A stretch of 64,000 nucleotides of DNA from Candidatus Binataceae bacterium (GTDB taxonomy: Bacteria > Desulfobacterota > Binatia > Binatales > Binataceae): NCBI GenBank assembly GCA_030038355.1, contig JASHPB010000044.1, forward strand, positions 66 through 64,065, given 5' to 3'. Positions 16,497 to 47,899 of this stretch are shown piece by piece. The notes beneath the pieces were generated by a model, which was not told the DNA's origin, made no database searches, and was given only the letters and a program-made list of their open reading frames with translations. Numbering within the stretch: position 1 is the first letter of the stretch; every line of letters starts with the position of its first letter. The position numbers and the translations under genes were made by a program.

Positions 16497-16497
16497 T

Positions 16498-17604: not shown

Positions 17605-17610
17605 GTGAAG

Positions 17611-18609
17611 TTAGTCGCGCAGGGCGCGTCCCGTCATGCGCAGAAAAACGTCTTCGAGATTTGGCTCCACTACACGCACACTGTCCGCCACGGTGCCGGC
17701 GTTGAGAAGCGCCGTCAGCATCGCGGGCAATCGATTGGCTCCATGATCGGCGACTACATGAAGATGATCGTTCTCCACGGTTGCGAGCTGCACGCCCTCG
17801 AGCGCGCTGACGATTCGCTGCGCGCGTACGAGCGAGTCGCCACGTCCCACCCCAATCTCGATTCGCGTATCCTGTGCCAGGTTCCCGATCAGCTCGGCAC
17901 GCGTGCCTTCGGCGATCAGGTGGCCTGAATCGATGATTCCGATGCGGGCGCAGAGGCGCTCCGCCTCTTCCATGTAGTGCGTCGTGTAAAGGATGGCGGT
18001 GCCAGCATCGCGGAGCCGCTCCACCAAATCGAAAATGGCGCTGCGACTCTGCGGATCCACGCCAACCGTCGGCTCGTCAAGAATGAGAAGCTTCGGCTGA
18101 TGCAGAATGCCGGCCGCGAGATTCAAGCGCCGTTGCATTCCGCCCGAGTAGGTCCCGACAATGTCGTCGGCACGCTTGGTTAGACCTACAGCTTCGAGAG
18201 CGGTGTCGATCGCCGCCCGTAGCGCGGTGCCGCTGAGATCATACAAGCGCCCCCAAAAGTCGAGATTCTCGCGCGCGGTGAGATCGAGATAGAGAGTGAT
18301 CGCCTGCGGTACGATTCCGATAAGTGCGCGCGCCGCGGGTCCAACGTCGATGTCGACGCCGTCGATCGTGATTTCGCCGCCGTCGCGTACGAGGATTCCG
18401 GCAATCATCGAGATCGAGGTGGTCTTGCCTGCACCGTTGGGTCCAAGCAAGCCGTAAATCTCCCCGGCCGCGATGCTGAATCCGATGCCTTCAACCGCGA
18501 CTCGCGCGCCGAAGCTCTTGCTGAGCCCTCGCACGACCAGCATTGGCGCCGACGGTTCGCTGGCCGTCATTCCTATCGCCGGGGGCATGGTCTCGACCTT
18601 TGTTTCCAT
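17611..18609 (-). CDS. ABC transporter ATP-binding protein; the start is chosen at METKVETMPP to avoid overlap with the upstream oxidase
   Basis: Walker A GLLGPNGAGKTT, signature YSGGMQRRLNLA, and Walker B LLILDEPT. Confidence 0.8.
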   Translation of the reverse strand: METKVETMPPAIGMTASEPSAPMLVVRGLSKSFGARVAVEGIGFSIAAGEIYGLLGPNGAGKTTSISMIAGILVRDGGEITIDGVDIDVGPAARALIGIVPQAITLYLDLTARENLDFWGRLYDLSGTALRAAIDTALEAVGLTKRADDIVGTYSGGMQRRLNLAAGILHQPKLLILDEPTVGVDPQSRSAIFDLVERLRDAGTAILYTTHYMEEAERLCARIGIIDSGHLIAEGTRAELIGNLAQDTRIEIGVGRGDSLVRAQRIVSALEGVQLATVENDHLHVVADHGANRLPAMLTALLNAGTVADSVRVVEPNLEDVFLRMTGRALRD

Positions 18610-18625
18610 CGCCGATGGTGGATCT

Positions 18626-29368: not shown

Positions 29369-30511
29369 CTAATTTCGCACCGGCGCGAACTCCGCGCGGA
29401 TACGATCGGTGTGGGCGCCGAGCGCTGGCGCGGCGCGGCGCGTCGTGCCGTCGGTAAGTCCGCTCATCTTGATTGGGTTGCCTGCCATCCGGATGTTGCC
29501 GGCGCTCACGAACATGTTGCGCTCCGCCAGCTGCGGAAGCTTCGTCATCTCCTCGACCGTGTTGACGAGGCTGCAGGGAACGTTGGCCTCGCTCAGAATC
29601 TCAATCCACTCGGCGGCGGGTCGCGTGCGCAGCGCGCGATCGAGCTCGACTTTGAGGCGCGAGTGATTTGCCACGCGGTTGGCGAGTTCCGCGAACCGCG
29701 CATCATGCACGAGATCCGGCCGCTCAACCAACTCGCAGAGGCGGGCGAACATCTCGTCGGTCGCCGCAATGATGTAAATGAGACGATCGGCGGCCAGGAA
29801 CGCGTCGGACGGCGTAATCACCGGATGGCGGCTGCCGATTCGCGAAACCGGCGGCTCGCCGTTGAGCGCGCGCATGAGAGCCGCTTCGAGCACTGCAACC
29901 TGCGCATCGAGCATCGCGATATCGATCCGCGAGCCCTCACCCGTCCGCTCGCGCTCATACAGCGCAGCCTCAATACCGGCGAGGCAGAAGAGCCCGCTCA
30001 TGTAATCCATCATCGAGGTGCCGACCTTGGTGGGCGGATCGTCGGGCTGGCCGTTGATGCTCATCATGCCGCCCATCGCCTGGATAATTGGATCGTAGGC
30101 GGGCTGGTTGCGAAGCGTGCCGTCCTGGCCGAAGCCGGAGATCGCCGCATAGATGATGCGCGGGTTGATCGCGCGCAGCGCCGGATAATCGAGGCCGAGA
30201 TGCTGCAACGTCACGTAACGTAGATTCTCGACCACGACGTCGGCGCGCCGAATCATCTCGCAGAGCAGCGCATGATCGTCGGGCAGCTCACAGTCGATCA
30301 CGATCGATTCCTTGCCGCGATTGATCGATGCGAAGTAGATCGACATGCCGTCGCGATCCGGTCCGAAGCGCCGCGTATCGTCGCCGTGACCCGCGTGCTC
30401 GACCTTGATCACGCGCGCGCCGAGCTCAGCCAGGAGCATCGTGCAGAAAGGACCCGACAGGACGTGAGTCAGATCGATAACCGTCACGTCAGATAACGGT
30501 GCGGCGCCCAT
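29369..30511 (-). CDS. Family III CoA-transferase (CaiB/BaiF family)
   Basis: LSDVTVIDLTHVLSGPFCTMLLAELGARVIKVE is the canonical CoA_transf_3 N-terminus, in 380 aa. Confidence 0.85.
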   Translation of the reverse strand: MGAAPLSDVTVIDLTHVLSGPFCTMLLAELGARVIKVEHAGHGDDTRRFGPDRDGMSIYFASINRGKESIVIDCELPDDHALLCEMIRRADVVVENLRYVTLQHLGLDYPALRAINPRIIYAAISGFGQDGTLRNQPAYDPIIQAMGGMMSINGQPDDPPTKVGTSMMDYMSGLFCLAGIEAALYERERTGEGSRIDIAMLDAQVAVLEAALMRALNGEPPVSRIGSRHPVITPSDAFLAADRLIYIIAATDEMFARLCELVERPDLVHDARFAELANRVANHSRLKVELDRALRTRPAAEWIEILSEANVPCSLVNTVEEMTKLPQLAERNMFVSAGNIRMAGNPIKMSGLTDGTTRRAAPALGAHTDRIRAEFAPVRN

Positions 30512-30594: not shown

Positions 30595-32121
30595 TCAGCG
30601 GCCACCGCCGCCTGGGGCGAGCGGATCTGCAGACACCGCGCCATGTTTTGCGGGCTTCGGCATGTGGATGTACAAATCCTCCGCCGCGGGACGCTTGTCG
30701 GTATGCATCTTCGGCGGTCGCATCGCGTACTTCACTTCCTTGAAGTGCTCGTTGTACTGGCGCTCGGGGTTGTACACGCGGTTGAATTTCCAGAGCATCT
30801 TGAGGAAGTTGGTCTGCCCCTTGAGCGCGAGCTTGCCCGCGATCGTCGCGACTTCCTTCAGTGCCGCAAACCCGAGATGCTTCTTGTTGAGCACGTCCTG
30901 CGTCTTCACGAGCTGCCGGTAAAACTCGTCGAGCGGCAGCGTCGTCGGCAGTACGGCGTGCTGGATATCGAAAAGCCGGTAATCGAGCGTCGTCAGCTTG
31001 CGCGATTCGGTAAACCAGAGCTCGGTTCCCGGATACGGCGTTGCGACCGTGAGATGCACAATCTCCGGGATGCTCATGGCCCATTCGCGGATAATCTCGA
31101 AGCGGCGCGCGTCCCACGACGGGTCGGCGATCAGGTTGATTGCGACGGTCAGGCCGATATCGCGCGCGACTTCGAGCGCCTTGTTATTCACGCCCATCGA
31201 CGAACGCTTGCGATGCAGCTTGAGCCCTTCCTCGTCGATCGCTTCGAGGCCGAGGAACATGTACTCGAGCCCGAGCTTGCGCCAATAGCGGAAGACCTCG
31301 GGGTTGCGGCATAGCACGTCGGAGCGAGTCTCGAGGTAGTAGCGCTTTTTGATGCGGCGCTTCTCGATCTCCTTGCCGATGGCGAAGCCGTGCTCGGGAT
31401 GGATGAACGCAACGTCGTCGACAATGAAGACTCCAGATTCCTTGATCGACGCCATGTCTTCTGCCGCAGCCTCGGCTGTCGATTTGCGATAGCTGCGGCC
31501 GTAGAAGGTCCACGCGCTGCAGAACGAACAGTCCCACGGGCATCCACGGGTGAATTCGATCGACGCGGCGGGATCGAGGACGCCGATGAAATACTTGTTG
31601 CGGCGGCGGCCCAGATCGCGCGCCGGGAAAAATTTGTCGAGGTCGTCGAGCATTATTGGCGCGGGCCCGACGCCACGCGTTGTTACCGCTCCCGGCACCT
31701 TCGCGATCGAATCGGTGCCGACCGCTTGCAGCAGCATCACCGCCGCCGTCTCGCCCTCGCCGCGCAGCACGCAGTCGATGGCGCCCTCGGCGTGCTCGAG
31801 CAACTCGTCCGCCACGAACGATCCGCTATGTCCACCGCTGAAGACGAAACATTGAGGATCAAGCCGCTTGAGCTCCTTGGCTAGGTCAATCACCTCGGGC
31901 GCGTTGGCGAGATAGTTGAGCGAGAAGCCGACGGCCTGCGGCTTGAAGCCTTTGAGCTCCGCGAAGAGGTCGGGATGCTTGAAAATCTGGAGATCGATCA
32001 TGCGGACATCGTGACCCGCGGCACGCACCGCCGCAGCGACGCGCTCCATCCCGAGCGGTTCCAGCCGCAGGTAGATTTCGCTGTACATGAGTGGGCTAGG
32101 ATGGACGAAGAGAACGCGCAT
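30595..32121 (-). CDS. Cobalamin-binding (class B) radical SAM protein, HpnP/HpnR/BchE-like architecture
   Basis: An N-terminal B12-binding Rossmann domain (RVLFVHPSP...GGHSGSF) is followed by a radical SAM core that includes FTRGCPWDCSFCSAW, and by a C-terminal DUF4070-like region. Confidence 0.8.
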   Translation of the reverse strand: MRVLFVHPSPLMYSEIYLRLEPLGMERVAAAVRAAGHDVRMIDLQIFKHPDLFAELKGFKPQAVGFSLNYLANAPEVIDLAKELKRLDPQCFVFSGGHSGSFVADELLEHAEGAIDCVLRGEGETAAVMLLQAVGTDSIAKVPGAVTTRGVGPAPIMLDDLDKFFPARDLGRRRNKYFIGVLDPAASIEFTRGCPWDCSFCSAWTFYGRSYRKSTAEAAAEDMASIKESGVFIVDDVAFIHPEHGFAIGKEIEKRRIKKRYYLETRSDVLCRNPEVFRYWRKLGLEYMFLGLEAIDEEGLKLHRKRSSMGVNNKALEVARDIGLTVAINLIADPSWDARRFEIIREWAMSIPEIVHLTVATPYPGTELWFTESRKLTTLDYRLFDIQHAVLPTTLPLDEFYRQLVKTQDVLNKKHLGFAALKEVATIAGKLALKGQTNFLKMLWKFNRVYNPERQYNEHFKEVKYAMRPPKMHTDKRPAAEDLYIHMPKPAKHGAVSADPLAPGGGGR

Positions 32122-35526: not shown

Positions 35527-36777
35527 TTACGCGGCGACAGCCTTCGCCGGAATCAGCCGCGCCTGTTCAGATTCGAGTGACAAGCATCCGAGCGTCACGA
35601 CTACGCCTAGCGCGGCGGCGACAATAAACGCATCGAAGGCAAACGAGTACGAGCCCATCACATCGAAGATTCGCCCTGCGGCGACCGGGCCGATCGCGGC
35701 GCCTACCGTCTGGAAAACGCCGCTGGTGCCGGCGATCGAGCCGAAACGCTTCAGCCCCAGCGACTCCACGGTGATCATCGGCAGCAGCACCAGCGGCGCG
35801 CCGAGCGAAAGACCGAAGATGAGCACGAACGGGACCAGCACTCCCATGTGGGCGTCACCGAATATCAGGAGAATGCCGACGCCCTGCGCGACGAAATTCC
35901 ATGCCAGCGCGCGCCTTGCGCTGACGCGATCGGCGAACGCGCCCATCATCAGCTTGCCGAGTCCTGCCAGCACCAGCACCAGGCTCATCGTCCTGGCGGC
36001 AAACGCGGCGCTGTAGTGGAGGCCGATGAGGTAGGGAATCAGGTGCAGGCCGGCGCTCGCCGCGATGAACGCGTAAAGGAAGTTCGCCCCGCAGATCAGC
36101 CAGAACGAACGCGTGTGCGACGCCTCGCCGAGCTCGAAGCCCGGGAGGTCGATAGCGGGCTGCGTCGGCAGATCGGCCGGAGCGATCGTGGCGCGCACCT
36201 CGGGCGGGCGGCTGCGGACCATCAGGATCATGATCGGAATCGCGACCACGACCATCGGAATCGCGAGCGTGATGTAACCGCCGCGCCATCCGAAATGGGT
36301 GATCGCGAGATTGGCGACTATTGTCATGCCTGCGCCGCCGAGCGCCGTGCCCGAGAGCGTAAGGCCGAGCGCGATTCCGCGGTTGCCGCTGAACCAGTTC
36401 GATACGACCAGCGCAGCGGGCAACAGCGTCGCGCCGCCAATCCCAAATCCTAGTAGCAGGTAAGCGCCGAGCATCGGGCCGTACGAATGAACCTGGCTCG
36501 CGCCGAAATATGCGGCGCCCGCGAACAGCGCGCCAACTACCATCACCGCACGAGCTTCGATTCTATCCAGCAGCCATCCGATGAGCGGCGCCGAGATGCC
36601 GGCCGAGACCGCGAGGATGCTTTGGAGGCCAGAGACCTGCGCGCGACTCCATCCGAATTGTTTGATCAGTGGGGTAACGAAAACGCCGGCGACATTGTAG
36701 CCGCCGCCGAAGATAAGAAAGAGAACCACCCACAGGCTTGCAACGATCAACCATCCCTGGCGTTCGCGCGGCGTCAT
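35527..36777 (-). CDS. MFS transporter
   Basis: 416 aa and 12 TM, with an OFA-like organisation (GWLLDRIEARAVMVVG). Confidence 0.75.
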   Translation of the reverse strand: MTPRERQGWLIVASLWVVLFLIFGGGYNVAGVFVTPLIKQFGWSRAQVSGLQSILAVSAGISAPLIGWLLDRIEARAVMVVGALFAGAAYFGASQVHSYGPMLGAYLLLGFGIGGATLLPAALVVSNWFSGNRGIALGLTLSGTALGGAGMTIVANLAITHFGWRGGYITLAIPMVVVAIPIMILMVRSRPPEVRATIAPADLPTQPAIDLPGFELGEASHTRSFWLICGANFLYAFIAASAGLHLIPYLIGLHYSAAFAARTMSLVLVLAGLGKLMMGAFADRVSARRALAWNFVAQGVGILLIFGDAHMGVLVPFVLIFGLSLGAPLVLLPMITVESLGLKRFGSIAGTSGVFQTVGAAIGPVAAGRIFDVMGSYSFAFDAFIVAAALGVVVTLGCLSLESEQARLIPAKAVAA

Positions 36778-37594: not shown

Positions 37595-39352
37595 TCAGCA
37601 AGCGCCGCACACGGTGCATCGAGTTACGTCGCAAGGCGGGCTCTGATGCTCGAAGTGCGCCTTCTTCCGCTCGGACTCGAGGAACCACTTCTCGACATGA
37701 TGGTCGATAAAGTCCCAAGGTAAAAGCTCGTCGCGCGCATACTCGCGCGTCACGAAGAACGTGGGATCAGGCAACTCGTTCGCCACACCCGAAGCGGTTT
37801 CGCGGCGGATCGCCTGCAACTCGTGCCAAATTTTCCCAGGCTCGTCGGCGCCAGCTGCCTGCAACCGCTCGAGAATTCGGGATACTCGGCGGTCGCCTCG
37901 CGAGACCATGGTTTGGAAGTACGCTTCGCGCGGAGATTCCGCATCCAGCTCGACCGGCCCCAGTTTGTTGAGAGCCGAGCGCAGCATTGCGATCTTTCGC
38001 TTCAAGTTTCGCGCGTCTTCCATCCGATCCCACTGAAACGGCGTCCACGGCTTGGGAACGAAGGGATTAAGCGAGACGGTAACGCTGGCAAGGCGTTGTC
38101 GGCGCTCGCGCGCGCCCGCGATTATCTTGCCGGTCAGGTCGGCGATCGCGAGCACGTCGTGATCGCGCTCCTCCGGCAGTCCAACCATAAAGTAAAGCTT
38201 TAGATTTGCAACGCCCTCGCCGAGCATCATGGCCGCCGCTTCGAGGATTTGTGCTTCGGTGAGATTCTTGTTGATGACCTTGCGCATCCGCTCGCTGCCC
38301 GCTTCGGGAGCGATCGTCACGCTATGCGCGCCGGTTTCGGCCAGCGCGGCCGCGAGTTTGGGCGAGATACAATCGGCTTTGAGGGAAGAGGGCGAGAGCC
38401 GGCCGCCGCGCTCCGCCACGTCGGTCGCGATTTCGGCGACTCCAGGCACACTCGCCATCTCGGCGCCGACGAGCCCAATGACTTTGCGCTCGGCTAGGCC
38501 GTGGCGCGCCTCGGCGATCAGATTTTCGGGTGAGCGATGGCGAATCGGCCGGTACATGAAGCCGGCCGCGCAAAAGCGGCATCCCCATTGGCATCCGCGG
38601 CTCGCCTCGACCAGGTACATGTCGCCGAAGACCGATTCCTCGGTGAGAATCAGCGACGCGGTCTTGAATTGATTGAGGTCGTCGATCAGCCGGCGATTGA
38701 CGCGCGGCTTGGCAGGACCGCGATAGGCGAATGAACGGAGCCGTCCGCGTTCATCGTATGCAGGTGTGTAATGCTCGGGTACATACGCGCCTTCGACCTG
38801 GGCGAGCCGGTCGAGCAAATCGGTGTCGCCCCGATGCTCCGAAAAGCGCGCGAGGAACTCGGGTGCCATTTCCTCGCCCTCGCCAATCAGGAAGAGGTCG
38901 ATAAGATCCGCGATCGGTTCGGGATTGAGGAACACCGCCGAGCCGCCCGCCACAATCAGCGGATATCCGCGGCCCTTGCGTGCGGCGCTGCGCGCGGGAA
39001 TTCCGGCCAGCTCGAGCACCTGCAGGAGATTCAGATAGTCGGTCTCGAACGAAATCGAAAACGCGATGACGTCGAAATCGGACAGCGGGCGCGCGCGCTC
39101 GAACGAGACCAAGCGCTCGCCCGTCTTGCGCATCTGCGCGCGCTCATCGGCGTCGGGCAGGAATGCGCGCTCGGCAGCGACGCGAGAATCTGACTCGAAG
39201 ATGTGGAACACGGCCTGGTAGCCGAGATTCGCCATTCCGAGCCGATAGATGTTTGGGTAAACGACGCAGACCGAGATGTCGCCGCCGGGGCTCCGCTCGT
39301 AGAGCAGCTTCTCGCGCGCGATTCGCTCCAGCGCGCGCTTACGGATAAACAT
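37595..39352 (-). CDS. Radical SAM protein with an N-terminal B12-binding-like domain (TIGR03960-like, uncharacterised family)
   Basis: ISVCVVYPNIYRLGMANLGYQAVF N-terminus, CQWGCRFCAAGF cluster motif, and 585 aa with a Cys-rich C-terminus CDVTRCTVCGAC. Confidence 0.8.
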   Translation of the reverse strand: MFIRKRALERIAREKLLYERSPGGDISVCVVYPNIYRLGMANLGYQAVFHIFESDSRVAAERAFLPDADERAQMRKTGERLVSFERARPLSDFDVIAFSISFETDYLNLLQVLELAGIPARSAARKGRGYPLIVAGGSAVFLNPEPIADLIDLFLIGEGEEMAPEFLARFSEHRGDTDLLDRLAQVEGAYVPEHYTPAYDERGRLRSFAYRGPAKPRVNRRLIDDLNQFKTASLILTEESVFGDMYLVEASRGCQWGCRFCAAGFMYRPIRHRSPENLIAEARHGLAERKVIGLVGAEMASVPGVAEIATDVAERGGRLSPSSLKADCISPKLAAALAETGAHSVTIAPEAGSERMRKVINKNLTEAQILEAAAMMLGEGVANLKLYFMVGLPEERDHDVLAIADLTGKIIAGARERRQRLASVTVSLNPFVPKPWTPFQWDRMEDARNLKRKIAMLRSALNKLGPVELDAESPREAYFQTMVSRGDRRVSRILERLQAAGADEPGKIWHELQAIRRETASGVANELPDPTFFVTREYARDELLPWDFIDHHVEKWFLESERKKAHFEHQSPPCDVTRCTVCGAC

Positions 39353-39444: not shown

Positions 39445-40266
39445 TTACGCGATGACTCTCGACGGATGCGTATAGATATTGAAGCCACCTTCGCGGAGAA
39501 AGCCGATCAGCGTGAGGCCGAGTTCTGCGCCGAGTTGGACCGCGAGCGACGAGGGCGCGGACACCGCGGCGAGGATCGGCGCGCCGGCGGCGGCGGCCTT
39601 CTGCACGATCTCGAATGACAGGCGCCCGCTCACCATCATGACGCTGTCCGCCAGCGGCAACTGATCGTTCATCAGCGCGTGGCCCACAATCTTGTCGACC
39701 GCGTTATGACGGCCGATGTCCTCGCGAATCGCGAGCAGCTCGCCCGTCCGATCGAATCGCGCCGCGGCATGAAGGCCACCGGTGGAAGCGAACACTTGCT
39801 GCGCGCCGCGGAGTTTCGGCGCGATCGCGAGAATCGTCTCGGCGGGGAGGTGGATGGCATCGGTGAGCGGCGCGATGCGCCTGGTCAGCGACTCGATACT
39901 GGTGCGGCCGCAGATTCCGCAGCTCGAGTTGATGGTGAAATTGCGGCTGAGCCGCTCCCTTAGCCCCTCAGCCGGAACGTTGAGTACGATATCGAGCGCG
40001 TTGGGCTCCGGGCCACCCCGCGCGTCGCGCACGCGGCGAATCTCGCCAAGCTCGGCGCGCGAGTTGATGAATCCCTCGGCGTGTAGAAATCCGGCCGCGA
40101 GCTCTTCGTCGTCTCCCGGCGTGCGCATCGTGATCGTGAATCGGCGTCCGCCGAGCCGGATCTCGAGCGGTTCTTCGACCGCTACCGCGTCGGAAGCGGC
40201 GCGGGTTTCACCCGCTGACCATCTGAGCGGCGTGATTGGGAGTTGTTTTTTGACCCGCACTGGCAC
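39445..40266 (-). CDS. fdhD: Formate dehydrogenase accessory sulfurtransferase FdhD
   Basis: 273 aa with the conserved SCGICG motif and HNAVDK. It is divergent from the formate dehydrogenase operon. Confidence 0.85.
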   Translation of the reverse strand: MPVRVKKQLPITPLRWSAGETRAASDAVAVEEPLEIRLGGRRFTITMRTPGDDEELAAGFLHAEGFINSRAELGEIRRVRDARGGPEPNALDIVLNVPAEGLRERLSRNFTINSSCGICGRTSIESLTRRIAPLTDAIHLPAETILAIAPKLRGAQQVFASTGGLHAAARFDRTGELLAIREDIGRHNAVDKIVGHALMNDQLPLADSVMMVSGRLSFEIVQKAAAAGAPILAAVSAPSSLAVQLGAELGLTLIGFLREGGFNIYTHPSRVIA

Positions 40267-40341
40267 ATCTCTACACTATCATTGGTGAGCCTCGGCGCGC
40301 AGTGCTGAGTGCGGGCTCTTCCCCGATGATCGGAGAGTTTG

Positions 40342-43300
40342 ATGGCCAATCACTTCAGTCCCGACAGCGCAGCCAAACACTCGCGGCTTCGCGGCGCGGT
40401 CAAGAGTCACAGCGTCTGTCCCTACTGTGCGGTCGGATGCAGCCAGAACGTCTACACCAAGGCGGGCGAGCTGATCGATATCGAGGGCGCGCCCGAGAGT
40501 CCGATCAACGCCGGGCGGCTCTGCCCCAAGGGCGCCAACACGTTCCAGCTCGTCAGCAACCGCCATCGCGTAAAAAACGTGATGTATCGCGCGCCCTACT
40601 CCGATCATTGGGAGACGCGGCCGCTTAACTGGGCGATGGATCGGATCGCGGCGCTGACGAAAGCTGCGCGCGACGCCGACTTCGTAGAGCGCGACGCGAC
40701 CGGACTCACGGTCAATCATCTGAAGACCCTCGCCCATCTCGGCGGCGCGACGCTCGACAACGAGGAAAACTACCTCATCAAGAAACTGTTAGCCGGAGGC
40801 CTGGGAATTCTCTCGATCGAGAACCAGGCGCGGATATGACACAGCTCATCGGTGCCCGGTCTGGGCGCCTCCTTTGGACGCGGTGCGGCGACGACGTTCC
40901 AGGCTGACCTGGCGGCGAGCGACTGCATCCTCATCATGGGCTCGAACATGGCGGAGGCACATCCGGTCGGATTTCGTTTTGTAGTTGAAGCGCGCGAGCG
41001 GGGCGCCGCGCTGATTCACGTCGACCCTCGCTTCACGCGGACCTCGGCCATGGCGAATCTTTTCGTGCCGATTCGAGCGGGCTCGGACCTCGCCTTCCTC
41101 GGCGGCATCATCAACTACATCGTCAGCAACGATCGTTGGTTCAAGGAATACGTCCTGCACTACAGCAACGCCTCGGCAATCGTGAACGAGGCGTTTGTCG
41201 ATGCGGAGCAAAACAACGGCATCTTTCCGGGTTTGGATCCGGCGCGGCACGCTTACATGAAGGAAACCGGATCCTGGAATTACAGCACCCTCCCGGATGG
41301 AATCGGCGCAGTCGAGAGAGATCCGTCGCTGCAGCATCCGCGATGCGTTTTCCAGGTGCTGCGCCGTCATTTCGCACGCTACACACCCGAGATGGTTTCG
41401 CGCGTGTGCGGATGCAAGGCCGGCGATGTCGTGCGCGTGGCGGAGCTGCTCTGCCGCAATTCGGGACGCGAGCGCACGAGCGCAATCGTCTACGCGCTCG
41501 GCTGGACGCAGCACACGACGGGAGTACAGATGATCCGCGCCGCCGGGATCATCCAGCTATTGCTCGGCAACATAGGACGGCCGGGCGGCGGGATCATGGC
41601 GATGCGCGGTCATTGCAGCATCCAGGGTTCGACCGACGTTCCCACGATGTACAACCTGTTGCCGGGTTACTTGTCACATCCCGACGCCGTTCCTCAGAAC
41701 GCTACCCTCGACGAATACATCAGGCACGGCAGGGGCTTCGCCAACGCGCGCAATTGCTCAGCGTCCGGGTTCTGGCAGGAAGAAGCCGTGCTCGGATATT
41801 GGTCCCACATCGGGAGCTTCATCGTGAGCCTGCTCAAGGCCTGGTATGGCGATGCGGCGACGCCCGACAACGAATTTGGATTCCAATGGCTGCCGAAGCT
41901 GGATGGCGACTATTCCGAGCTGCCGATGTTTTTTCAGATGCATCGCGGCGGCGTGAAGGGCCTCTTCCTCATCGGACAAAATCCCGCCGCCGGTGCGCCC
42001 AATGCCAGCCTGAATCGCGCCGCGCTGAGAAACCTGGATTGGATCGTGGTGCGGGACTGGTTCGAGCACGAGAGCGCTAATTTCTGGTATGCGGACCCGA
42101 CGGCCGGCGATCCGAAGACGATCAAGACCGAGGTCTTCTTTCTGCCCGCTGCCACCAACATCGAAAAGGACGGCTCCTTCACCAACACCGAACGCTTGCT
42201 CCAGTGGCACGAAAAAGCGCTCGATCCTCCCGGCGATTGCCGTTCGGACACCTGGTTCATCTACCATCTCGGACAACGTCTGAAGAAACTCTACGCGCAC
42301 TCGACACTCGAGCGCGACGCGCCAATCAAAAATCTCACTTGGAATTACTCGCGCACTTCGCCGGCCACTCTTCCCGACGGCTCGCAGAGCAGGATTGCGG
42401 ACGAACCGGAAGTCGAAAAGGTGCTGCAGGAGATGAATGGGCGGCGCGTCGGCGGCGAGCTGCTGACGGGTTTCGGCGAGCTGAAGGCCGACGGCTCGAC
42501 CGCTTGCGGCGTGTGGATTTACACGGGAGTCTTTCCCGCCGAAGGTGACAATCGTGCGCATTCGCGCAATCCTGCGCTGAACGGCGCGACCTATCCCGGA
42601 TGGGGATTTGCCTGGCCGGCGAATCGCCGCACGCTATACAACCGCGCGTCCGCCGATCCCGCAGGTAAGCCTTGGTCCGAGCGCAAGAAACTCATCTGGT
42701 GGGACGAACAGCAATCGAAGTGGACCGGCTTCGACGTTCCCGACTTCGAGGCGGACAAGCATCCTTCGTATCGGCCCGCGATGGGCGCGCTCGGCATGGA
42801 CGCGATCGCGGGAGATGCGCCGTTCATCATGCATCCCGACGGCCGCGGATGGTTGTTCGCGCCATTCGGCGTTCGTGATGGGCCATTGCCGACGCACTAC
42901 GAGCCGCTCGAGTCAGTGGTCAAGAATCAGCTCTACGCGACACAGAACAGTCCGACGGTACGCGAGTTCCGCGCCGACCTGAATCTATTGGCGAAGGACG
43001 TCGATCCCGAGTTTCCCTGCGTGGCAACGACCTATCGCCTCACCGAGCACTATCTCTCCGGCCCGATGAGCCGTTTCAACAGTTGGCTAAATGAATTGCA
43101 GCCTGAGATGTTCGTCGAGATCGATCCCGAGCTCGCACTGGAACGCGGAATTGAAAATGGCGCCTGGGCCGTGGTGCGGTCGCGGCGCGGCGCGATCGAG
43201 GCGCGCGCGATGGTCACGCCGCGAATCAAGCCGCTCCTCGTCGATGGCAAGACGATTCACCAGGTCGGGCTGCCAATCCATTGGGGATATGCGGGAGAGA

Positions 43301-43536
43301 CCGTCGGCGCGATGGCGAACGATTTGACGTCGCTCGTTGCGGATCTCAACGTGAGCATGCACGAGTCCAAGGCCTTCAGCGTTGATATCCGCGCGGGCCG
43401 CCTCGGCGCCGCCAGGGTCCCCAAAGCGATCGAGGCGGCGATACGACCCGCGGGCACCGATAATCCGATCCGTGATACTCCCGAGTTCGCGCAACCAGAG
43501 GGCCGTCAACAGCGGTGGGGGCTAAAGCGAGGCTAG
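40342..43536 (+). CDS. fdnG: Formate dehydrogenase catalytic (alpha) subunit, FdnG/FdoG-like selenoprotein with in-frame TGA at 40837-40839
   Basis: Two same-frame ORFs (40339-40839 and 40852-43536) are separated only by the TGA. ...IENQARI-U-HSSSVPGLGASFGRGA... aligns with E. coli FdnG ...DNQARV-U-HGPTVASLAPTFGRGA... The N-terminal 4Fe-4S Cys motif is CPYCAVGC...C, followed by MGSNMAEAHPVGFRF and a Mo-bisPGD fold. Confidence 0.85.
40837..40869 (+). promoter_or_regulatory. Selenocysteine UGA codon plus a downstream SECIS-like hairpin
   Basis: UGA lies at 40837-40839. Eleven nt downstream there is a 7-bp stem GGUGCCC/GGGCGCC closing a 5-nt loop GGUCU (40851-40869). The spacing and the G/U-containing apical loop match the bacterial minimal SECIS. 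Confidence 0.6.
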
Positions 43537-43549
43537 TATTCGAATCGAC

Positions 43550-44437
43550 ATGGCGAACCTGCTCCGCGACCTGCTCTACCCGTTCACGCGTCCGACGCCG
43601 CCCGCCTCGCGCCGTGCTACCGGATTCTTCACCGACACCACGCTCTGCATCGGATGCAAGGCGTGCGAGGTTGCCTGCAAGCAGTGGAACCAACTTCCGT
43701 CGGACGGGTTCAACTTCACCGCCAACAGCTACGATAACACCGCGCAGCTATCGGCGACGACCTGGCGCCACGTCAAGTTCCTCGAGCAATTCCCGCCAAG
43801 CGACTCCGCGCCGCCATCGCCACCCGACATGAACCTCGATCTCAGGTCGCTCCTGATGGAAGCGCAAAACGGCCGCTGGCTGATGATGAGCGACGTCTGC
43901 AAGCATTGCAGCGCGGCGCCATGCCAGATGGCGTGTCCGACGGGCGCCATCATCCACAACGAGTTCGACGACGTTTACATCCAGAACGACATCTGCAACG
44001 GGTGCGGCTACTGCGTGGCGGCGTGCCCCTTCGGCGTTATCTCGCGCAGCGCCTTCGACGGCCACGCGCACAAGTGCACGCTATGCTACGACCGTCAGCG
44101 CGACGACCTAATGCCGGCGTGCGCGAAAGCCTGCCCGACTGAATCGATTAGGTTCGGCCCGCTCGACGAGCTGCACGAGCACGCGGTGGGAAGGCTCGAA
44201 GAGGTGAAGGCGCGCGGCTTCAAGGGCGCGCGACTCTATGGCGATCGCGCAAGCGATACTTACTCCGCGCTCGGAGCATTCTTCCTCTTGCTCGATGAAC
44301 CATCGCGCTACGGCCTGCCAGACGATCCCGATACACCGCAGCGCCACATGATCGGCGACTATATCCGCGGCGCAGCGGGCACGCTGATCTGGGTCGCAAT
44401 CCTTGCGATCGCGGTGATCGCTCGTGCCCCAGGCTGA
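43550..44437 (+). CDS. fdnH: Formate dehydrogenase iron-sulfur (beta) subunit, FdnH-like with C-terminal TM anchor
   Basis: Four ferredoxin-type Cys clusters (CIGCKACEVAC, CKHC, CNGCGYC, CTLC) and a C-terminal hydrophobic helix (LIWVAILAIAVI). Confidence 0.85.
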   Translation: MANLLRDLLYPFTRPTPPASRRATGFFTDTTLCIGCKACEVACKQWNQLPSDGFNFTANSYDNTAQLSATTWRHVKFLEQFPPSDSAPPSPPDMNLDLRSLLMEAQNGRWLMMSDVCKHCSAAPCQMACPTGAIIHNEFDDVYIQNDICNGCGYCVAACPFGVISRSAFDGHAHKCTLCYDRQRDDLMPACAKACPTESIRFGPLDELHEHAVGRLEEVKARGFKGARLYGDRASDTYSALGAFFLLLDEPSRYGLPDDPDTPQRHMIGDYIRGAAGTLIWVAILAIAVIARAPG

Positions 44438-45272
44438 ATTATCAGCCGCGCGCGTCGTCACCAAGGCGCCGCCATGGCATAGGTCGGTCGCGATCGATCT
44501 CTTGTGCTCGTCGCTCGCGGCCGGCCTCTTCGCGGTTGCCGCCATCATCTATCTTCTCGGCGACGCTACCGATCGCGCGGTCGCGATGGTCGGCTTCGTG
44601 CTCGCCTTCCCGGTGATGATCGTCGATCTCGTGTGTCTCGTCATCGACCTCGGCGACCCGCTGCGATTCATGAACATGACGCGCGTCATTAAGCCCGGCT
44701 CGCCGATGTCGGTGGGAGTTTGGGGAATCGTGGTGTTCTCGTTGGTCTCATTCCTCTGCTTTGCGATCTCGCTTGTTGGAATAGGCGCCTACGCGCTTCC
44801 ATTTCTTGCCTTGTTTGGATTTCCGTTCGCACTCGTCGTGGCCAACTACAAGGGCGTGCTCTTCAGCACGACGGCACAACCCGGATGGAGTTCGATGCGG
44901 TGGCTGGGTGCCCTGATCTCGATCTCGGCCGGCTCGATGGGCGTGGCGGTGCTGCTCGCCGCTGCGGCGCTCGCCGGGGTCGATGACCCTGCGGCGTTTC
45001 TGCGCACGGCTCTGGTTTGGATTCTTGTGGTCTACGCGATCGTGTTCGTCGCGCTACAGCGCGAAGGCGATCGATGGACGCGCGCTGCGCGGCGCACCTT
45101 TGCGGCGGGGATGTGGCTCACGGTACTGGTCGGAATCATCGTGCCGCTCGCCATCGCGCTGCTCGCTGCCGGTCCCGAGACCGATTGCGTCGCCGCGCTA
45201 TGCGTGATTGCGGGCTCGGCCGCGTTTCGTGACGTGCTGGTAAAGATTCCTCATCGTCTGGACGCGAATTGA
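44424..45272 (+). CDS. NrfD/PsrC/DmsC-family polytopic membrane anchor subunit
   Basis: 282 aa, ~8 TM, with no haem-ligating His pattern typical of cytochrome b FdnI. Overlaps the fdnH stop by 14 nt. Confidence 0.55.
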   Translation: MPQAELSAARVVTKAPPWHRSVAIDLLCSSLAAGLFAVAAIIYLLGDATDRAVAMVGFVLAFPVMIVDLVCLVIDLGDPLRFMNMTRVIKPGSPMSVGVWGIVVFSLVSFLCFAISLVGIGAYALPFLALFGFPFALVVANYKGVLFSTTAQPGWSSMRWLGALISISAGSMGVAVLLAAAALAGVDDPAAFLRTALVWILVVYAIVFVALQREGDRWTRAARRTFAAGMWLTVLVGIIVPLAIALLAAGPETDCVAALCVIAGSAAFRDVLVKIPHRLDAN

Positions 45273-46186: not shown

Positions 46187-47899
46187 ATGGCGGTCAGAGG
46201 ACAAGACGAGTTCCTGAATCTTCCCTTCCAGGAGAAGCTCGAGTTCCTCTACGGCCTGCCCGCGCGCCAGAAACGCGACCTGATTCTCGCCGCACCCGAA
46301 GCGCAGCGGCTGGTGCAATCGTTCTCGCCCGAGACGCTCTTCTACACCGTCAAAGAGATTGGCAGCGCCGATGCGAGCGACCTCTTGAGCCTCGCGCTAC
46401 CCGAGCAGGTCAAGTCGCTGTTCGATCTCGATTGCTGGGACAAGGATCGCCCGAACCTCGAGCGGATGCGCGAGTGGATCGAGGCGCTCGCCGAGGGCGG
46501 CCGCCGATGCCTCGCCGAGGGCCTGATGGAACTCGACCTGGAGCTCGTCTCGATCCTGCTCCGCGATTACATCAAGGTGCATCTACTGGATGATCCGGCA
46601 TCCTCGCCCGACGCGCCGTCGAATCGCTACGCTCAGTTCGACGAGCACTACCTGATCGAGTTCACGCGCCAGGATCAGCTCTCACAGCACATCTCGGATT
46701 TCATCGAGGAGGTGTTCGAGCGCGATTACAAGTACTTCGCGGGACTGATGGACGAGTGCTATTGGGGCGTGAAGGCGGAACTCGAGGAACAGGCCTACCA
46801 GTTCCGAAGCGCGCGCCTCAACGATCGCGGCTTCCCGGACTACTACGACGCGCAGGACGTCTTCGCCTACATCAATCCGCGCAACTTCCTCGAAATACTT
46901 AAGCAGTACGAGCCCCCGAGCCGTGCCGAGCTGCTCGATCCGGCCGAGCTGGTGCCGCCGAGTTCTGCGCCCACGCTCGCGGGCGCCGACAATTCGCTCT
47001 TCAACACCGCGCTCACCGCGGGATTCGCAGCCGACGGCAAGCGACAGTTGCGGAGCGAGATGGCGATGGTGTCGAACCAGGTGCTGGTGGCGCGCTCAAT
47101 CGATTTCGGTGATCTCGATGCAGTGCGAGTCGCCGTTGAGATGACACATGACTACCTGAATCTCGGGCTCGAGTATCTCGCGGCGGGCGACCTCGAAGCT
47201 GCAATCGAGCATCTGCGCGACACGCATTTGAAGCTGCTCTTTCGGCTTGGCGTGAGCCTCACGATCGATTTGCGAAAGCGCGCCGAAGCTACGATGCGCA
47301 TGCTTGGGGTCGGGAATCTGCGGAGCGAAGTTTCCTATCTTGACAGCCCCTATCGCGAGGTGCTGGCGGGCTTCCTCGAATTGCAGCCACGCTTCTATTC
47401 GGCGCTCGACAAAGGCGGCGCGGTCGAGATGCGATGCTTTCGCGCGATTCGCGATATCCACCTTAGCTACGCGATTCTCGATCAAATCGATGCGATCGCT
47501 GAACTTTTCCGCACGCTGCTCACGATCGATATCGCGTCGCCGCGCTTTCGCTCTGCGGTGGCGGCGCGCGAGATTCACCTGAGCCAAATCCTCACCACTG
47601 CGATGGTGCGCAACTTCATCGACGGCCGGCTCGAGGCGGAACCTTTGGAAGAAAGCCGGCTTTCATCTATTCGCGCCGCTGTCGTCCTGCAGAACGGCAC
47701 GCCAGCGCATCTTAGCGAAGAGTTCCGTCGCTCGGTCGAAGCCACACTCGCGGAACGGCTCGGCCAAGACGCCTTGCGGCGCACGAGCGACTTCGTCAAT
47801 TCCTGTCTCAATCAGTTCGAGGATGAGTTCGGCGGTCTCAGCGTAAACTATCCGCTCGACCCGCGTTTCCTTTTGAGCGTGCTGATAAAGCGCGGCTAG
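46187..47899 (+). CDS. Conserved-looking hypothetical protein, 570 aa, no recognisable domain
   Basis: A long GC3-rich ORF with predicted all-alpha composition and no signal peptide or TM. No catalytic motif could be recognised by eye. Confidence 0.6.
   Translation: MAVRGQDEFLNLPFQEKLEFLYGLPARQKRDLILAAPEAQRLVQSFSPETLFYTVKEIGSADASDLLSLALPEQVKSLFDLDCWDKDRPNLERMREWIEALAEGGRRCLAEGLMELDLELVSILLRDYIKVHLLDDPASSPDAPSNRYAQFDEHYLIEFTRQDQLSQHISDFIEEVFERDYKYFAGLMDECYWGVKAELEEQAYQFRSARLNDRGFPDYYDAQDVFAYINPRNFLEILKQYEPPSRAELLDPAELVPPSSAPTLAGADNSLFNTALTAGFAADGKRQLRSEMAMVSNQVLVARSIDFGDLDAVRVAVEMTHDYLNLGLEYLAAGDLEAAIEHLRDTHLKLLFRLGVSLTIDLRKRAEATMRMLGVGNLRSEVSYLDSPYREVLAGFLELQPRFYSALDKGGAVEMRCFRAIRDIHLSYAILDQIDAIAELFRTLLTIDIASPRFRSAVAAREIHLSQILTTAMVRNFIDGRLEAEPLEESRLSSIRAAVVLQNGTPAHLSEEFRRSVEATLAERLGQDALRRTSDFVNSCLNQFEDEFGGLSVNYPLDPRFLLSVLIKRG

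What the first reader, a model, noticed from the sequence alone, without database searches (positions are those of the whole stretch)
40339..45272. Selenocysteine formate dehydrogenase operon: recoded UGA with SECIS hairpin, alpha subunit without a Tat signal, NrfD-type membrane anchor
The alpha-subunit gene is split into two listed ORFs only by a TGA at 40837-40839. Reading through gives ...QARI-U-HSS..., which aligns with the Sec site of E. coli FdnG. A 7-bp stem with a GGUCU loop begins exactly 11 nt after the UGA, the spacing required for SelB-dependent recoding. Two further features are atypical. First, the alpha subunit has no twin-arginine leader, and an in-frame TGA at 40327 precludes an upstream extension, although the beta subunit has the FdnH-type C-terminal anchor that normally implies a periplasmic complex. 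Second, the membrane subunit is an 8-TM NrfD/DmsC-like protein rather than the dihaem cytochrome b FdnI. Together these suggest a non-canonical FDH topology. A naive annotation would miscall the alpha subunit as two genes or as a pseudogene.
Basis: partly seen in the sequence, partly recalled or inferred. Interest (0 to 1): 0.7.

Follow-up and report, generated by a model that had tools for sequence, protein, structure and literature searches.

The report
Inward-facing selenocysteine formate dehydrogenase operon
This is a real selenium-containing formate dehydrogenase operon whose three subunits all carry signals for facing the cell interior rather than the periplasm, an orientation not described for this widespread but uncharacterised enzyme type of soil bacteria.

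Summary
The alpha gene (40342-43536) has one in-frame TGA (40837-40839). It aligns exactly with the selenocysteine of E. coli FdnG and D. gigas FDH. A 7-bp hairpin with a GGUCU loop starts 11 nt downstream, in the same register as the E. coli fdhF SECIS. All 76 readable relatives keep the TGA, and the hairpin codons are frozen at synonymous sites. Acidobacterial relatives carry tRNA-Sec, selD and selA beside the operon.

The alpha subunit has no Tat leader, here or in any of the 76 relatives. The beta subunit is FdnH-like, with 16 Cys and a C-terminal helix. The third subunit is an 8-helix NrfD/PsrC protein.

The "non-canonical topology" reading is supported. Lys+Arg in the membrane subunit lies on the face that docks the Fe-S subunit: 15 vs 2 here, 13.9 vs 3.1 on average, 79 of 79 relatives. 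This is the reverse of E. coli DmsC and NrfD and of two relatives whose alpha has a Tat leader. The beta helix is followed by only 2-5 residues. The complex therefore most likely faces the cytoplasm.

The alpha-beta-NrfD architecture was already named FqoABC in 2021, but it is uncharacterised and was treated as periplasm-facing. Sec machinery in this genome could not be checked.

The parts
39445..40266 (-). fdhD, the formate dehydrogenase accessory sulfurtransferase, divergent from the operon
   Evidence: NCBIfam NF001943 294.8 bits (cut-off 269); Pfam FdhD-NarQ 241 bits. The same divergent arrangement is seen in Binataceae relatives.
40327..40329 (+). In-frame TGA that closes the alpha reading frame upstream. 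Together with the 75-nt gap to fdhD, it leaves no room for a signal peptide.
   Evidence: Sequence read directly; upstream open frame SESL-MANHF.
40342..43536 (+). Alpha (catalytic) subunit, FdnG-type Mo/W-bisPGD formate dehydrogenase, 1064 aa. Fe-S Cys at C26/C29/C33/C61; active site U166, H167, R422. No Tat leader.
   Evidence: TIGR01553 1015.7 bits (cut-off 814.2); NF041513 1397.7 (cut-off 1400). 1KQF_A E 3.5e-230 over residues 11-1017, with Sec, His and Arg446 columns conserved.
40837..40839 (+). UGA decoded as selenocysteine (U166)
   Evidence: Aligns with Sec of FdnG and of D. gigas FDH. TGA is present in 76 of 76 relatives, in the context ENQARI*HSASVP.
40851..40869 (+). SECIS hairpin: stem 40851-40857 / 40863-40869, loop GGUCU 40858-40862
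   Evidence: Centroid fold. Same register as the E. coli fdhF SECIS. Synonymous sites frozen. Covariation 0/500 shuffles. Rfam SECIS_3 over 40834-40892, 40.4 bits.
43550..44437 (+). Beta subunit, FdnH-like four-cluster ferredoxin, 295 aa. C-terminal membrane helix at residues 275-291 (nt 44372-44422), followed by only RAPG.
   Evidence: TIGR01582 159 bits (below its cut-off of 334.7); Pfam Fer4_11. 16 Cys in 4 motifs. Helix and tail analysis.
44424..45272 (+). Membrane anchor, NrfD/PsrC family (FqoC-type), 282 aa, 8 helices, no haem ligand motifs needed. Predicted N-in/C-in.
   Evidence: Pfam PF03916 43 bits. AlphaFold pLDDT 86.7. Best PDB match PsrC 2VPW_C, TM 0.66/0.73. Profile alignment to PsrC places W18-H19, loop 2 and Y142 on PsrC W14-H15, loop 2 and Y130. 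K+R 15 vs 2.

Best explanation
The operon fdhD | alpha-beta-NrfD encodes a membrane-bound, selenocysteine-dependent formate:quinone oxidoreductase of the FdnGH + NrfD-anchor type ('FqoABC'). In this lineage it is assembled on the cytoplasmic face of the membrane.

Shown:
- UGA 40837 sits at the catalytic Sec position, and a conserved SECIS hairpin follows it at the fdhF spacing.
- The alpha subunit keeps the Sec/His/Arg active site and the 4Fe-4S motif.
- The beta subunit keeps four cluster motifs and a C-terminal helix.
- The third subunit has the PsrC fold.
- No subunit has a Tat or Sec signal.
- The Lys/Arg bias of the anchor is the reverse of N-out NrfD proteins.

Inferred:
- SelB recodes the UGA.
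- FdhD sulfurates the cofactor.
- Alpha-beta fold in the cytoplasm and stay there.
- Beta is inserted as a tail anchor with a 2-5 residue external end.
- The anchor sits N-in/C-in, so that its conserved N-terminus, loop 2 and loop 4 (the PsrC-type quinone pocket and Fe-S docking face) look inward.

Electrons from cytoplasmic formate would pass through five Fe-S clusters to quinone on the inner side. Formate protons are released and quinone protons taken up on the same side, so there is no FDH-N-type redox loop. Energy is conserved downstream, unless the NrfD subunit itself moves protons. The likely role is to feed internally produced or imported formate into an aerobic or microaerobic respiratory chain.
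For: Sec and SECIS:
-.
- tRNA-Sec, selD and selA lie directly beside the same operon in seven acidobacterial loci of the family. PGAP-annotated selD/selA/selB lie beside the related actinobacterial operons.

Formate dehydrogenase identity: plus the adjacent fdhD.

Architecture is conserved across Binataceae, Acidobacteriaceae, Bryobacterales, Gemmatimonadales and Planctomycetota: 80 loci, and 2876 protein clusters at E <= 1e-5.

Orientation:
1. None of the 76 alpha N-termini has RR plus a hydrophobic stretch. In contrast, T. roseum and Nonomuraea locus 1 have SRRRFL plus an h-region.
2. K+R on the N-terminus/L2/L4/L6/C-terminus face against the L1/L3/L5/L7 face is 15 vs 2 here. The family mean is 13.9 vs 3.1, with the same direction in 79 of 79. 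After removing conserved K/R columns it is still 7.9 vs 2.2.
3. With the alignment-mapped loop boundaries, E. coli DmsC scores 2 vs 7 and NrfD 3 vs 9. With each protein's own predicted helices the values are 4 vs 8 and 6 vs 13, the same direction. The anchors of the two relatives whose alpha has a Tat leader score 2 vs 9 and 7 vs 7.
4. PsrC has both termini on the P side (PMC8076601). The conserved loops align to its quinone and Fe-S face.
5. The beta helix is followed by a mean of 4 residues, against 13-19 residues starting RKRR or RRRK in the two Tat-leader relatives.
6. No small Tat-bearing partner ORF lies in the window.
Against: - Orientation rests on sequence statistics (the positive-inside rule) and on the absence of a signal. 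No experiment and no dedicated predictor (SignalP, TatP, DeepTMHMM) was available.
- Part of the K/R excess lies in conserved, probably functional residues.
- The T. roseum anchor, whose alpha has a Tat leader, shows only a weak opposite bias (7 vs 7 to 8 vs 10).
- In the Tat-less actinobacterial and alphaproteobacterial relatives the beta helix ends in a polybasic tail (RKKGRR, RRRR). This does not fit a simple cytoplasmic tail anchor, so the rule may not be general.
- A cytoplasm-facing enzyme wastes the large formate-to-quinone potential drop unless NrfD pumps.
- Sec machinery was not found in the window, and the rest of the genome could not be searched.
- The 2021 review and the 2026 R. 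equi paper both assume or argue for export.
Confidence: 0.7

Rival explanations
1. The complex is periplasm-facing like FDH-N and like FqoABC as drawn in the literature. Alpha-beta would be exported by a cryptic or degenerate Tat signal, or by hitch-hiking on a Tat-signal protein encoded elsewhere.
For: - The closest solved relatives, FdnGH and D. gigas FDH, are periplasmic.
- The beta subunit keeps the FdnH-type C-terminal helix.
- Tat-less actinobacterial relatives keep an RRxFL-like N-tail and a polybasic beta tail.
- The R. equi paper argues for export (PMC13332983).
- The review treats only SoeC as inverted (PMC8076601).
Against: - In this family the N-tail is 13-25 polar residues with no RR consensus and no hydrophobic core, in 76 of 76 loci.
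- The beta N-terminus has no h-region before the first Fe-S motif.
- No TIGR02811-like or other Tat ORF lies in the window.
- The anchor's K/R bias is opposite to all N-out controls in 79 of 79 members.
- The beta tail is 2-5 residues with at most one basic residue.
- No fdhE is present, unlike the T. roseum operon, whose alpha has a Tat leader.
Confidence: 0.2
2. The TGA is a genuine stop. The locus is then a pseudogene, or two separate genes of 166 and 894 aa, and the hairpin is a chance feature of GC-rich DNA.
For: - The single-sequence fold is no better than shuffles (z 0.84).
- Rfam SECIS_3 scores below its gathering threshold.
- No sel genes or tRNA-Sec lie in the window.
- Gene callers split the gene in all metagenome records.
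Against: - The TGA is kept at exactly the Sec column in 76 of 76 loci across at least five phyla, with both halves intact.
- Synonymous-site freezing is confined to the hairpin.
- Compensatory changes occur in the stem.
- The hairpin is in register with the fdhF SECIS.
- Sec machinery is adjacent in relatives.
Confidence: 0.02
3. The enzyme is a cytoplasm-facing Mo/W-bisPGD oxidoreductase with a substrate other than formate, or it works mainly as a quinol-driven CO2 reductase.
For: No activity has been measured for any member. The beta subunit scores below the FdnH equivalog cut-off (159 vs 334.7). NF041513 is narrowly missed.
Against: - Alpha exceeds the curated FDH-N alpha cut-off.
- The Sec-His pair and the Arg446 equivalent are conserved.
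- FdhD is adjacent.
- CO2 reduction by quinol is thermodynamically very unfavourable (established redox potentials, not computed here).
Confidence: 0.05

Closest known systems
E. coli formate dehydrogenase-N, FdnGHI (PDB 1KQF)
   Same: The alpha subunit is FdnG-type: E 3.5e-230, with Sec, His, Arg and the 4Fe-4S motif at the same columns. The SECIS lies right after the UGA. The beta subunit has four [4Fe-4S] motifs and a C-terminal membrane helix. The enzyme needs FdhD.
   Different: There is no 33-residue Tat leader. The anchor is an 8-helix haem-free NrfD/PsrC protein instead of the dihaem cytochrome b FdnI. The predicted orientation is cytoplasmic, so no redox-loop proton motive force is generated. 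No fdhE is present.
FqoABC, the 'formate:quinone oxidoreductase' proposed from genomes by Calisto and Pereira 2021 (PMC8076601)
   Same: The gene content is exactly the same: FdnG-like, FdnH-like and an 8-helix NrfD-like FqoC. It is uncharacterised.
   Different: FqoABC was reported from Actinobacteria, Chlorobi, Crenarchaeota, Chloroflexi and Deltaproteobacteria. It was treated as P-side facing, with only SoeC called inverted. The present family (Binataceae, Acidobacteriota, Gemmatimonadota, Planctomycetota) lacks the Tat leader and has the inverted charge bias. Versions whose alpha has a Tat leader do exist (T. roseum, Nonomuraea locus 1) and show the opposite signals.
Actinobacterial formate dehydrogenase, NCBIfam NF041513 (formate_DH_Act); R. 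equi FDH-alpha/beta/NrfD (PMC13332983)
   Same: It is the best-scoring alpha model (1397.7 bits). The operon order is the same. SignalP finds no Tat peptide in R. equi. Tsukamurella and Arthrobacter loci are Sec-type, with selD and selA adjacent.
   Different: The score is 2.3 bits under the cut-off. The actinobacterial proteins keep a longer remnant N-tail (RRxFLxxW..RQL). Their NrfD subunit is larger (334-366 aa) with a very basic N-terminal extension. Their beta tail is polybasic.
SoeABC sulfite dehydrogenase and NarGHI nitrate reductase (cytoplasm-facing molybdoenzymes)
   Same: Both show that this enzyme class can flip to the N side. SoeC is an NrfD-type anchor regarded as inverted (PMC8076601). 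NarG keeps a remnant, non-exporting Tat-like N-tail (from my own knowledge of Ize et al. 2009; not re-read here).
   Different: They have different catalytic subfamilies and substrates and no selenocysteine. From my own knowledge, not tested here: NarI is a dihaem cytochrome b, and SoeB has no C-terminal membrane helix.
Thermus thermophilus polysulfide reductase PsrC (PDB 2VPW chain C)
   Same: It is the best structural match of the anchor (TM 0.66/0.73). It has 8 helices in two 4-helix bundles. The quinone-pocket residues are aligned (W-H at the N-terminus, and the Tyr of the YKG motif with PsrC Y130).
   Different: PsrC has both termini on the P side. Here the same face carries the positive charges. 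Sequence identity is 21%.

Membership tests
FdnG-type Mo/W-bisPGD formate dehydrogenase alpha subunit | Curated family score (TIGR01553) plus the three Pfam domains (Fe4S4, Molybdopterin, Molydop_binding) | tested here: met
   1015.7 bits against a cut-off of 814.2; all three Pfam domains above cut-off.
FdnG-type Mo/W-bisPGD formate dehydrogenase alpha subunit | Catalytic Sec/Cys followed by His, and the conserved Arg (FdnG U196, H197, R446) | tested here: met
   U166-H167 and R422 align column for column with 1KQF.
Bacterial selenoprotein gene (SelB-dependent recoding) | In-frame UGA at a position where homologues have Sec or Cys | tested here: met
   Sec in FdnG and D. gigas FDH; Cys in Chelatococcus (NQARVCH); TGA in 76 of 76 relatives.
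Bacterial selenoprotein gene (SelB-dependent recoding) | SECIS hairpin immediately 3' of the UGA, with a G/U-containing apical loop at the fdhF distance | tested here: met
   The stem starts at +11 nt and the loop GGUC at +21, identical to E. coli fdhF. Synonymous constraint and covariation support it. Rfam SECIS_3 gives 40.4 bits, below the gathering score of 63.
Bacterial selenoprotein gene (SelB-dependent recoding) | selA, selB, selC (tRNA-Sec) and selD in the same genome | not testable with these tools
Family members in Acidobacteriaceae have tRNA-Sec, selD and selA next to the operon.
FDH-N / FDH-O complex (FdnGHI) | Twin-arginine leader on the alpha subunit | tested here: not met
   Alpha residue 11 aligns with FdnG residue 35. 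An in-frame stop lies 12 nt upstream of the first candidate start codon (TTG 40339). There is no RR plus h-region.
FDH-N / FDH-O complex (FdnGHI) | Dihaem cytochrome b gamma subunit (FdnI) | tested here: not met
   The third gene is NrfD family. The next gene downstream is a convergent thiD-type kinase.
FDH-N / FDH-O complex (FdnGHI) | FdnH-type beta subunit: four [4Fe-4S] motifs plus a C-terminal membrane helix | tested here: met
   16 Cys in 4 motifs; helix at residues 275-291. The TIGR01582 score is only 159 against a cut-off of 334.7.
NrfD/PsrC membrane anchor family | Pfam PF03916 above cut-off and the 8-helix double four-helix-bundle fold | tested here: met
   43 bits against 25.8. The AlphaFold model has pLDDT 86.7, and the best PDB hit is PsrC 2VPW_C.
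NrfD/PsrC membrane anchor family | Canonical N-out/C-out orientation of the 8-helix members (PsrC, DmsC, NrfD) | tested here: not met
   The K+R distribution is 15 vs 2 in favour of the N-terminus/even-loop face, against 4 vs 8 (DmsC) and 6 vs 13 (NrfD). The family shows the same direction in 79 of 79 members. This is a prediction only.
FqoABC (Calisto and Pereira 2021) | Adjacent genes for an FdnG-like, an FdnH-like and an 8-helix NrfD-like subunit | tested here: met
   The same order is found in nearly all of the 80 loci.
NCBIfam NF041513 formate_DH_Act | Whole-protein score at or above the curated cut-off of 1400 | tested here: not met
   1397.7 bits with Cys substituted for Sec. This is a near miss. 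It is best read as a sister group of the actinobacterial enzymes.

The most novel reading that the evidence does not exclude
A whole respiratory complex has been turned over in the membrane. In a large clade of soil bacteria (Binatia, Acidobacteriota, Gemmatimonadota, Planctomycetota; thousands of sequences) the periplasmic FDH-N-like FqoABC has become a cytoplasm-facing selenoenzyme. All three subunits changed their topogenic signals in concert: the Tat leader was lost, the beta tail was trimmed to a true tail anchor, and the charge bias of the NrfD anchor was inverted. Versions whose alpha has a Tat leader and Tat-less versions coexist in one genome (Nonomuraea). If the NrfD subunit also translocates protons, this would be a formate-driven pump rather than a redox loop.
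Probability: 0.6. Interest if true: 0.6.

Novelty: new variant of a known kind. Interest (0 to 1): 0.5.

Why it matters
Formate is a central intermediate of C1, oxalate and fermentative metabolism, and Binatia are predicted methylotrophs. The published genome survey of this phylum lists only an NAD-dependent formate dehydrogenase in its metabolic cartoon (PMC8262859). A quinone-linked, inward-facing selenoenzyme would change how electrons from formate are budgeted in these abundant, uncultured soil lineages. It would also add a selenium requirement.

For bioenergetics, it gives a second case beside SoeABC of an inverted NrfD anchor. It comes with natural paired controls (relatives whose alpha has a Tat leader against Tat-less ones) and with cultured hosts (Tunturiibacter, Silvibacterium). 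This makes the open question of whether NrfD subunits pump protons directly testable.

For annotation, metagenome gene callers split this gene into two ORFs in every record seen.

Tried and rejected
- Rfam at gathering thresholds found only a tRNA-Arg and no SECIS. The relaxed scan found SECIS_3 below threshold.
- Single-sequence folding of 64 nt gave no signal above shuffles, so I relied on comparative data.
- My first hydropathy segmenter merged short loops and missed helices in half of the relatives. I replaced it with alignment-mapped loop boundaries.
- I looked for a trans-acting Tat partner, using a TIGR02811-type motif and a generic RR plus hydrophobic scan in six frames. There is none. 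The only hit lies inside the NrfD gene. The small ORF upstream of the Chelatococcus alpha gene is not a Tat protein.
- SRRATGFF in the beta N-terminus was considered as a Tat motif and rejected. It has no h-region, the RR is not positionally conserved, and it runs straight into the first Fe-S motif.
- I scanned about 36 window ORFs for selA, selB and selD and found none.
- The profile protein search returned only close family members in its top 120. Comparators with and without a Tat leader were therefore taken from the plasmid collection.
- Literature searches for a cytoplasm-facing NrfD-type FDH found nothing beyond PMC8076601 and PMC13332983.

Full report
**1. What is in the sequence**

Between 39445 and 45272 the window carries a divergent fdhD (39445-40266, minus strand) and three co-directional, tightly packed genes. 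The first gene appears as two ORFs, 40339-40839 and 40852-43536. They share one frame and are separated only by TGA 40837-40839. From ATG 40342 the read-through product is 1064 residues.

- It exceeds the curated cut-off of the FDH-N alpha family: TIGR01553, 1015.7 against 814.2 bits.
- Its best model is NF041513 'formate_DH_Act', at 1397.7 against a cut-off of 1400.
- Against solved structures the best matches are E. coli FdnG (1KQF, E 3.5e-230) and D. gigas W-FDH (1H0H).
- In both alignments the TGA column is the X that stands for selenocysteine. The following His and the Arg446 equivalent are conserved.

The second gene (43550-44437) is a four-cluster ferredoxin of the FdnH type. It has 16 Cys in four motifs and one C-terminal hydrophobic helix.

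The third gene (44424-45272) is an NrfD/PsrC-family protein (Pfam 43 bits, cut-off 25.8) with eight helices. An AlphaFold model (pLDDT 86.7) finds PsrC of Thermus polysulfide reductase as its best structural match, with TM 0.66/0.73. There is no FdnI-type cytochrome b. The next gene downstream is a convergent thiD-type kinase.

**2. The recoding signal**

The hairpin is GGUGCCC-GGUCU-GGGCGCC at 40851-40869 and begins 11 nt after the UGA. By itself it is not better than shuffled sequence in this GC-rich context (z 0.84). Rfam at gathering thresholds reports nothing. The comparative evidence is strong.

- I fetched 80 loci that encode relatives of the membrane subunit. All 76 whose alpha gene covers the site have TGA in the context ENQARI*HSASVP.
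- Among 61 distinct downstream sequences, the seven codons that form the hairpin (TCG GTG CCC GGT CTG GGC GCC) have synonymous-site entropy of 0-0.26 bit. The flanking codons have 0.4-1.5 bit. This includes an invariant GGT glycine codon in genomes that otherwise prefer GGC.
- More distant relatives show compensatory changes in the stem: G-C to C-G in Thermomicrobium, C-G to G-C in Nonomuraea, and G-C to U-A in Tsukamurella and Arthrobacter.
- On a 32-sequence alignment, 93.8% of cells pair and three pairs change on both sides. No shuffle out of 500 reaches the observed values.
- The hairpin is in exactly the register of the experimentally defined E. coli fdhF SECIS: UGA, 11 nt, stem, loop GGUC at +21.
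- A relaxed Rfam scan aligns SECIS_3 over its full length at 40834-40892. It scores 40.4 bits with E 2.7e-8, below the gathering score of 63.
- In seven acidobacterial loci of the same family, tRNA-Sec lies within a few hundred bases of the operon, joined by selD and selA where the locus extends far enough. In Tsukamurella and Arthrobacter, selD, selA and selB are annotated next to it.

The window itself holds no sel gene and only a tRNA-Arg. The rest of the genome could not be searched.

**3. No export signal**

- Alpha residue 11 aligns with FdnG residue 35, the first residues of the mature E. coli protein.
- An in-frame TGA lies at 40327-40329. Only 75 nt separate the ATG from the fdhD start.
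- The absence is a family trait. The N-tails of all 76 relatives are short and polar, for example MFRFPLTKKPQTSREPFS...SRLRGA. They have no twin-arginine consensus and no hydrophobic core.
- The beta N-terminus runs directly into the first Fe-S motif. Its RR is not positionally conserved.
- No small Tat-bearing ORF of the TIGR02811 kind, or any other Tat-like N-terminus, lies in the window.
- By contrast, two NrfD-type FDH operons found in the plasmid collection have textbook leaders. These are Thermomicrobium roseum (MAATLSRRRFLKVGGAAAGTAVGALAGLG...) and Nonomuraea gerenzanensis locus 1 (MEVSRRRFLSIGPMGVLGGSALG...).

**4. Which way the complex faces**

A profile of the anchor family aligns with PsrC. 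W18-H19, the DLGDPLRF...KPGSPMS loop 2 and Y142 of the YKGVLFSTTAQPGW loop 4 fall on PsrC W14-H15, loop 2 and Y130. In PsrC this is the quinone pocket, next to the Fe-S subunit. PsrC has both termini on the P side (PMC8076601). The N-terminus and the even-numbered loops are therefore the face that carries beta and alpha.

Lys+Arg counts on that face (even) against the opposite face (odd) are below. All rows use the alignment-mapped loop boundaries, except the family mean.

| Protein | Alpha Tat leader | K+R even vs odd |
|---|---|---|
| Window anchor | no | 15 vs 2 |
| Family mean (79 distinct relatives; even > odd in all 79) | no | 13.9 vs 3.1 |
| Family mean after removing columns with conserved K/R | no | 7.9 vs 2.2 |
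| Chelatococcus | no | 28 vs 12 |
| Tsukamurella | no | 28 vs 10 |
| Arthrobacter | no | 27 vs 9 |
| Nonomuraea locus 2 | no | 27 vs 8 |
| Indioceanicola | no | 28 vs 12 |
| E. coli DmsC (control of known N-out topology) | control | 2 vs 7 |
| E. coli NrfD (control of known N-out topology) | control | 3 vs 9 |
| Nonomuraea locus 1 | yes | 2 vs 9 |
| T. roseum | yes | 7 vs 7 |

With each protein's own predicted helices instead of the mapped boundaries, DmsC gives 4 vs 8 and NrfD 6 vs 13, and T. roseum gives 8 vs 10. The direction is the same.

A third signal comes from the beta subunit. In the window's family the C-terminal helix is very hydrophobic and is followed by only 2-5 residues (LKP, LRS, RAPG; 78 distinct tails). 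This is what a tail anchor inserted from the cytoplasm needs. The two relatives whose alpha has a Tat leader carry 13-19 residue tails that begin RKRR or RRRK.

The three topogenic signals therefore agree that alpha-beta sit on the cytoplasmic side and that the NrfD anchor is inverted. The literature accepts this arrangement only for SoeABC (PMC8076601).

**5. Mechanism**

Shown:
- The catalytic residues, cofactor motifs, SECIS, fold of the anchor and absence of signals.

Inferred:
- SelB-dependent insertion of Sec166.
- FdhD-dependent cofactor sulfuration.
- Oxidation of cytoplasmic formate.
- Electron transfer through the alpha cluster and four beta clusters to a quinone bound at the inner side of the anchor.

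Formate protons and quinone protons are handled on the same side. The enzyme therefore cannot build the FDH-N redox loop. It would act like succinate dehydrogenase or SoeABC and feed the quinone pool, unless the NrfD subunit itself translocates protons. That is an open proposal for this family (PMC8076601).

The taxa that carry the enzyme are mostly aerobic soil lineages, and Binatia are predicted methylotrophs (PMC8262859). A role in burning internally generated or imported formate is plausible. A monocarboxylate/oxalate-formate-type MFS gene lies 3.5 kb away, but it scores below all cut-offs.

**6. Relation to what is known**

The gene triplet was noticed by Calisto and Pereira (2021) and named FqoABC. 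It is uncharacterised. It was reported from other phyla and handled as P-side facing. A 2026 comparative-genomics paper on Rhodococcus equi describes the actinobacterial version. It notes that SignalP finds no Tat peptide, yet argues for export.

My comparators show that both kinds exist. Nonomuraea has one of each in a single genome. The actinobacterial and alphaproteobacterial Tat-less alpha subunits keep an N-tail that looks like a decayed Tat motif (ARRSFLQWPVVRQF, GRRAASFLRDWSLPRQL). This recalls the remnant N-tail of NarG, which I cite from my own knowledge.

One observation does not fit. In those actinobacterial and alphaproteobacterial relatives the beta helix ends in RKKGRR or RRRR. 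Their orientation is therefore less clear than that of the window's family.

**7. Verdict**

The operon is an ordinary member of a very large sequence family: 2876 clusters at E <= 1e-5 in a capped search. NCBI already annotates it piecewise, and its architecture has a name. What appears not to have been recognised is the concerted inversion of the complex in this clade.

I rate it a new variant of a known kind, of moderate interest. Confidence is about 0.95 in the selenoprotein and FDH parts and about 0.7 in the cytoplasmic orientation.

Noticed in passing
L094 9581-10603, L096 (beta frame ending 10420), L097 (beta frame ending 10463): In Tat-less actinobacterial and alphaproteobacterial relatives, the beta C-terminal Ala-rich helix ends in a polybasic tail (ARKKGRR, WRRRR, GGRRQA), like the relatives whose alpha has a Tat leader. 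Their NrfD subunits nevertheless have a strongly N-in charge bias. The two signals conflict, and this is unexplained.
   Followed up: partly
L095 6363-, L093 6336-, L097 (alpha N-terminus near 6360): Tat-less alpha subunits of Arthrobacter, Chelatococcus and Indioceanicola start with a decayed twin-arginine motif and a conserved W(P/S)xxRQL segment (MARRSFLQWPVVRQF; GRRAASFLRDWSLPRQL; ARRLRNFLREWSIPRQL). There is no hydrophobic core. This looks like a remnant signal peptide, possibly a chaperone-binding site.
   Followed up: partly
L091 (Tat leader, Sec) and L096 (Tat-less, no internal stop), both Nonomuraea gerenzanensis NZ_LT559118.1: One genome carries both a Tat-leader and a Tat-less NrfD-type FDH operon. 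The record is filed as 'plasmid I' but is 11.85 Mb, so it is evidently the chromosome.
   Followed up: partly
L040 7909-10629; also L064, L065, L070, L073, L075, L084: tRNA-Sec lies immediately next to the alpha-beta-NrfD operon in Acidobacteriaceae, including cultured Tunturiibacter and Silvibacterium. selD and selA follow it in six of these seven loci (no hit in the shorter L064).
   Followed up: yes
L092 8111-8983: The Thermomicrobium roseum operon, whose alpha has a Tat leader, includes fdhE and two small hypothetical genes after nrfD. The window operon and its Binataceae relatives have fdhD only.
   Followed up: no
L093 6336-9566: The Chelatococcus alpha subunit has Cys (NQARVCH) where the others have Sec. 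It is preceded by a translationally coupled 77-aa ORF of unknown function that is not a Tat protein.
   Followed up: partly
L037 3155-3199; L095 6927-6971: Two SECIS variants have the loop AGUUU instead of GGUCU (GGT to AGT, Gly to Ser, plus CTG to TTG), in a Fimbriiglobus MAG and in Arthrobacter. They are independent changes to the same loop sequence.
   Followed up: no
window 35527-36777 (-) and 29369-30511 (-): The first is an MFS transporter closest to the lactate/monocarboxylate and oxalate-formate antiporter families (130 and 68 bits, all below cut-off). The second is a family III CoA-transferase closest to CoA:oxalate CoA-transferase (405 bits against a cut-off of 522). Together they may link to formate or oxalate supply.
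   Followed up: partly
window 30595-32121 (-): Hopanoid C-3 methylase HpnR (844 bits, cut-off 650). This is a lipid-biomarker gene usually associated with aerobic bacteria.
   Followed up: no
window 37595-39352 (-): A TIGR03960-family B12-binding radical SAM protein (413 bits, just under the cut-off of 462) lies next to fdhD. In the more distant Binataceae locus L002 this position is taken by an ABC-2 transporter, so the linkage is not conserved.
   Followed up: partly
window 13517-15394 (-) and 18626-20497 (-): Two paralogous FAD-binding/berberine-bridge-type oxidases flank an ABC-2 exporter (15411-18675).
   Followed up: no
window 46187-47899 (+): A DUF6178 protein of 570 aa follows the operon. 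The synteny thiD - DUF6178 - BFN/PDZ protein - FtsJ methyltransferase - UvrD is conserved in Binataceae locus L002.
   Followed up: no
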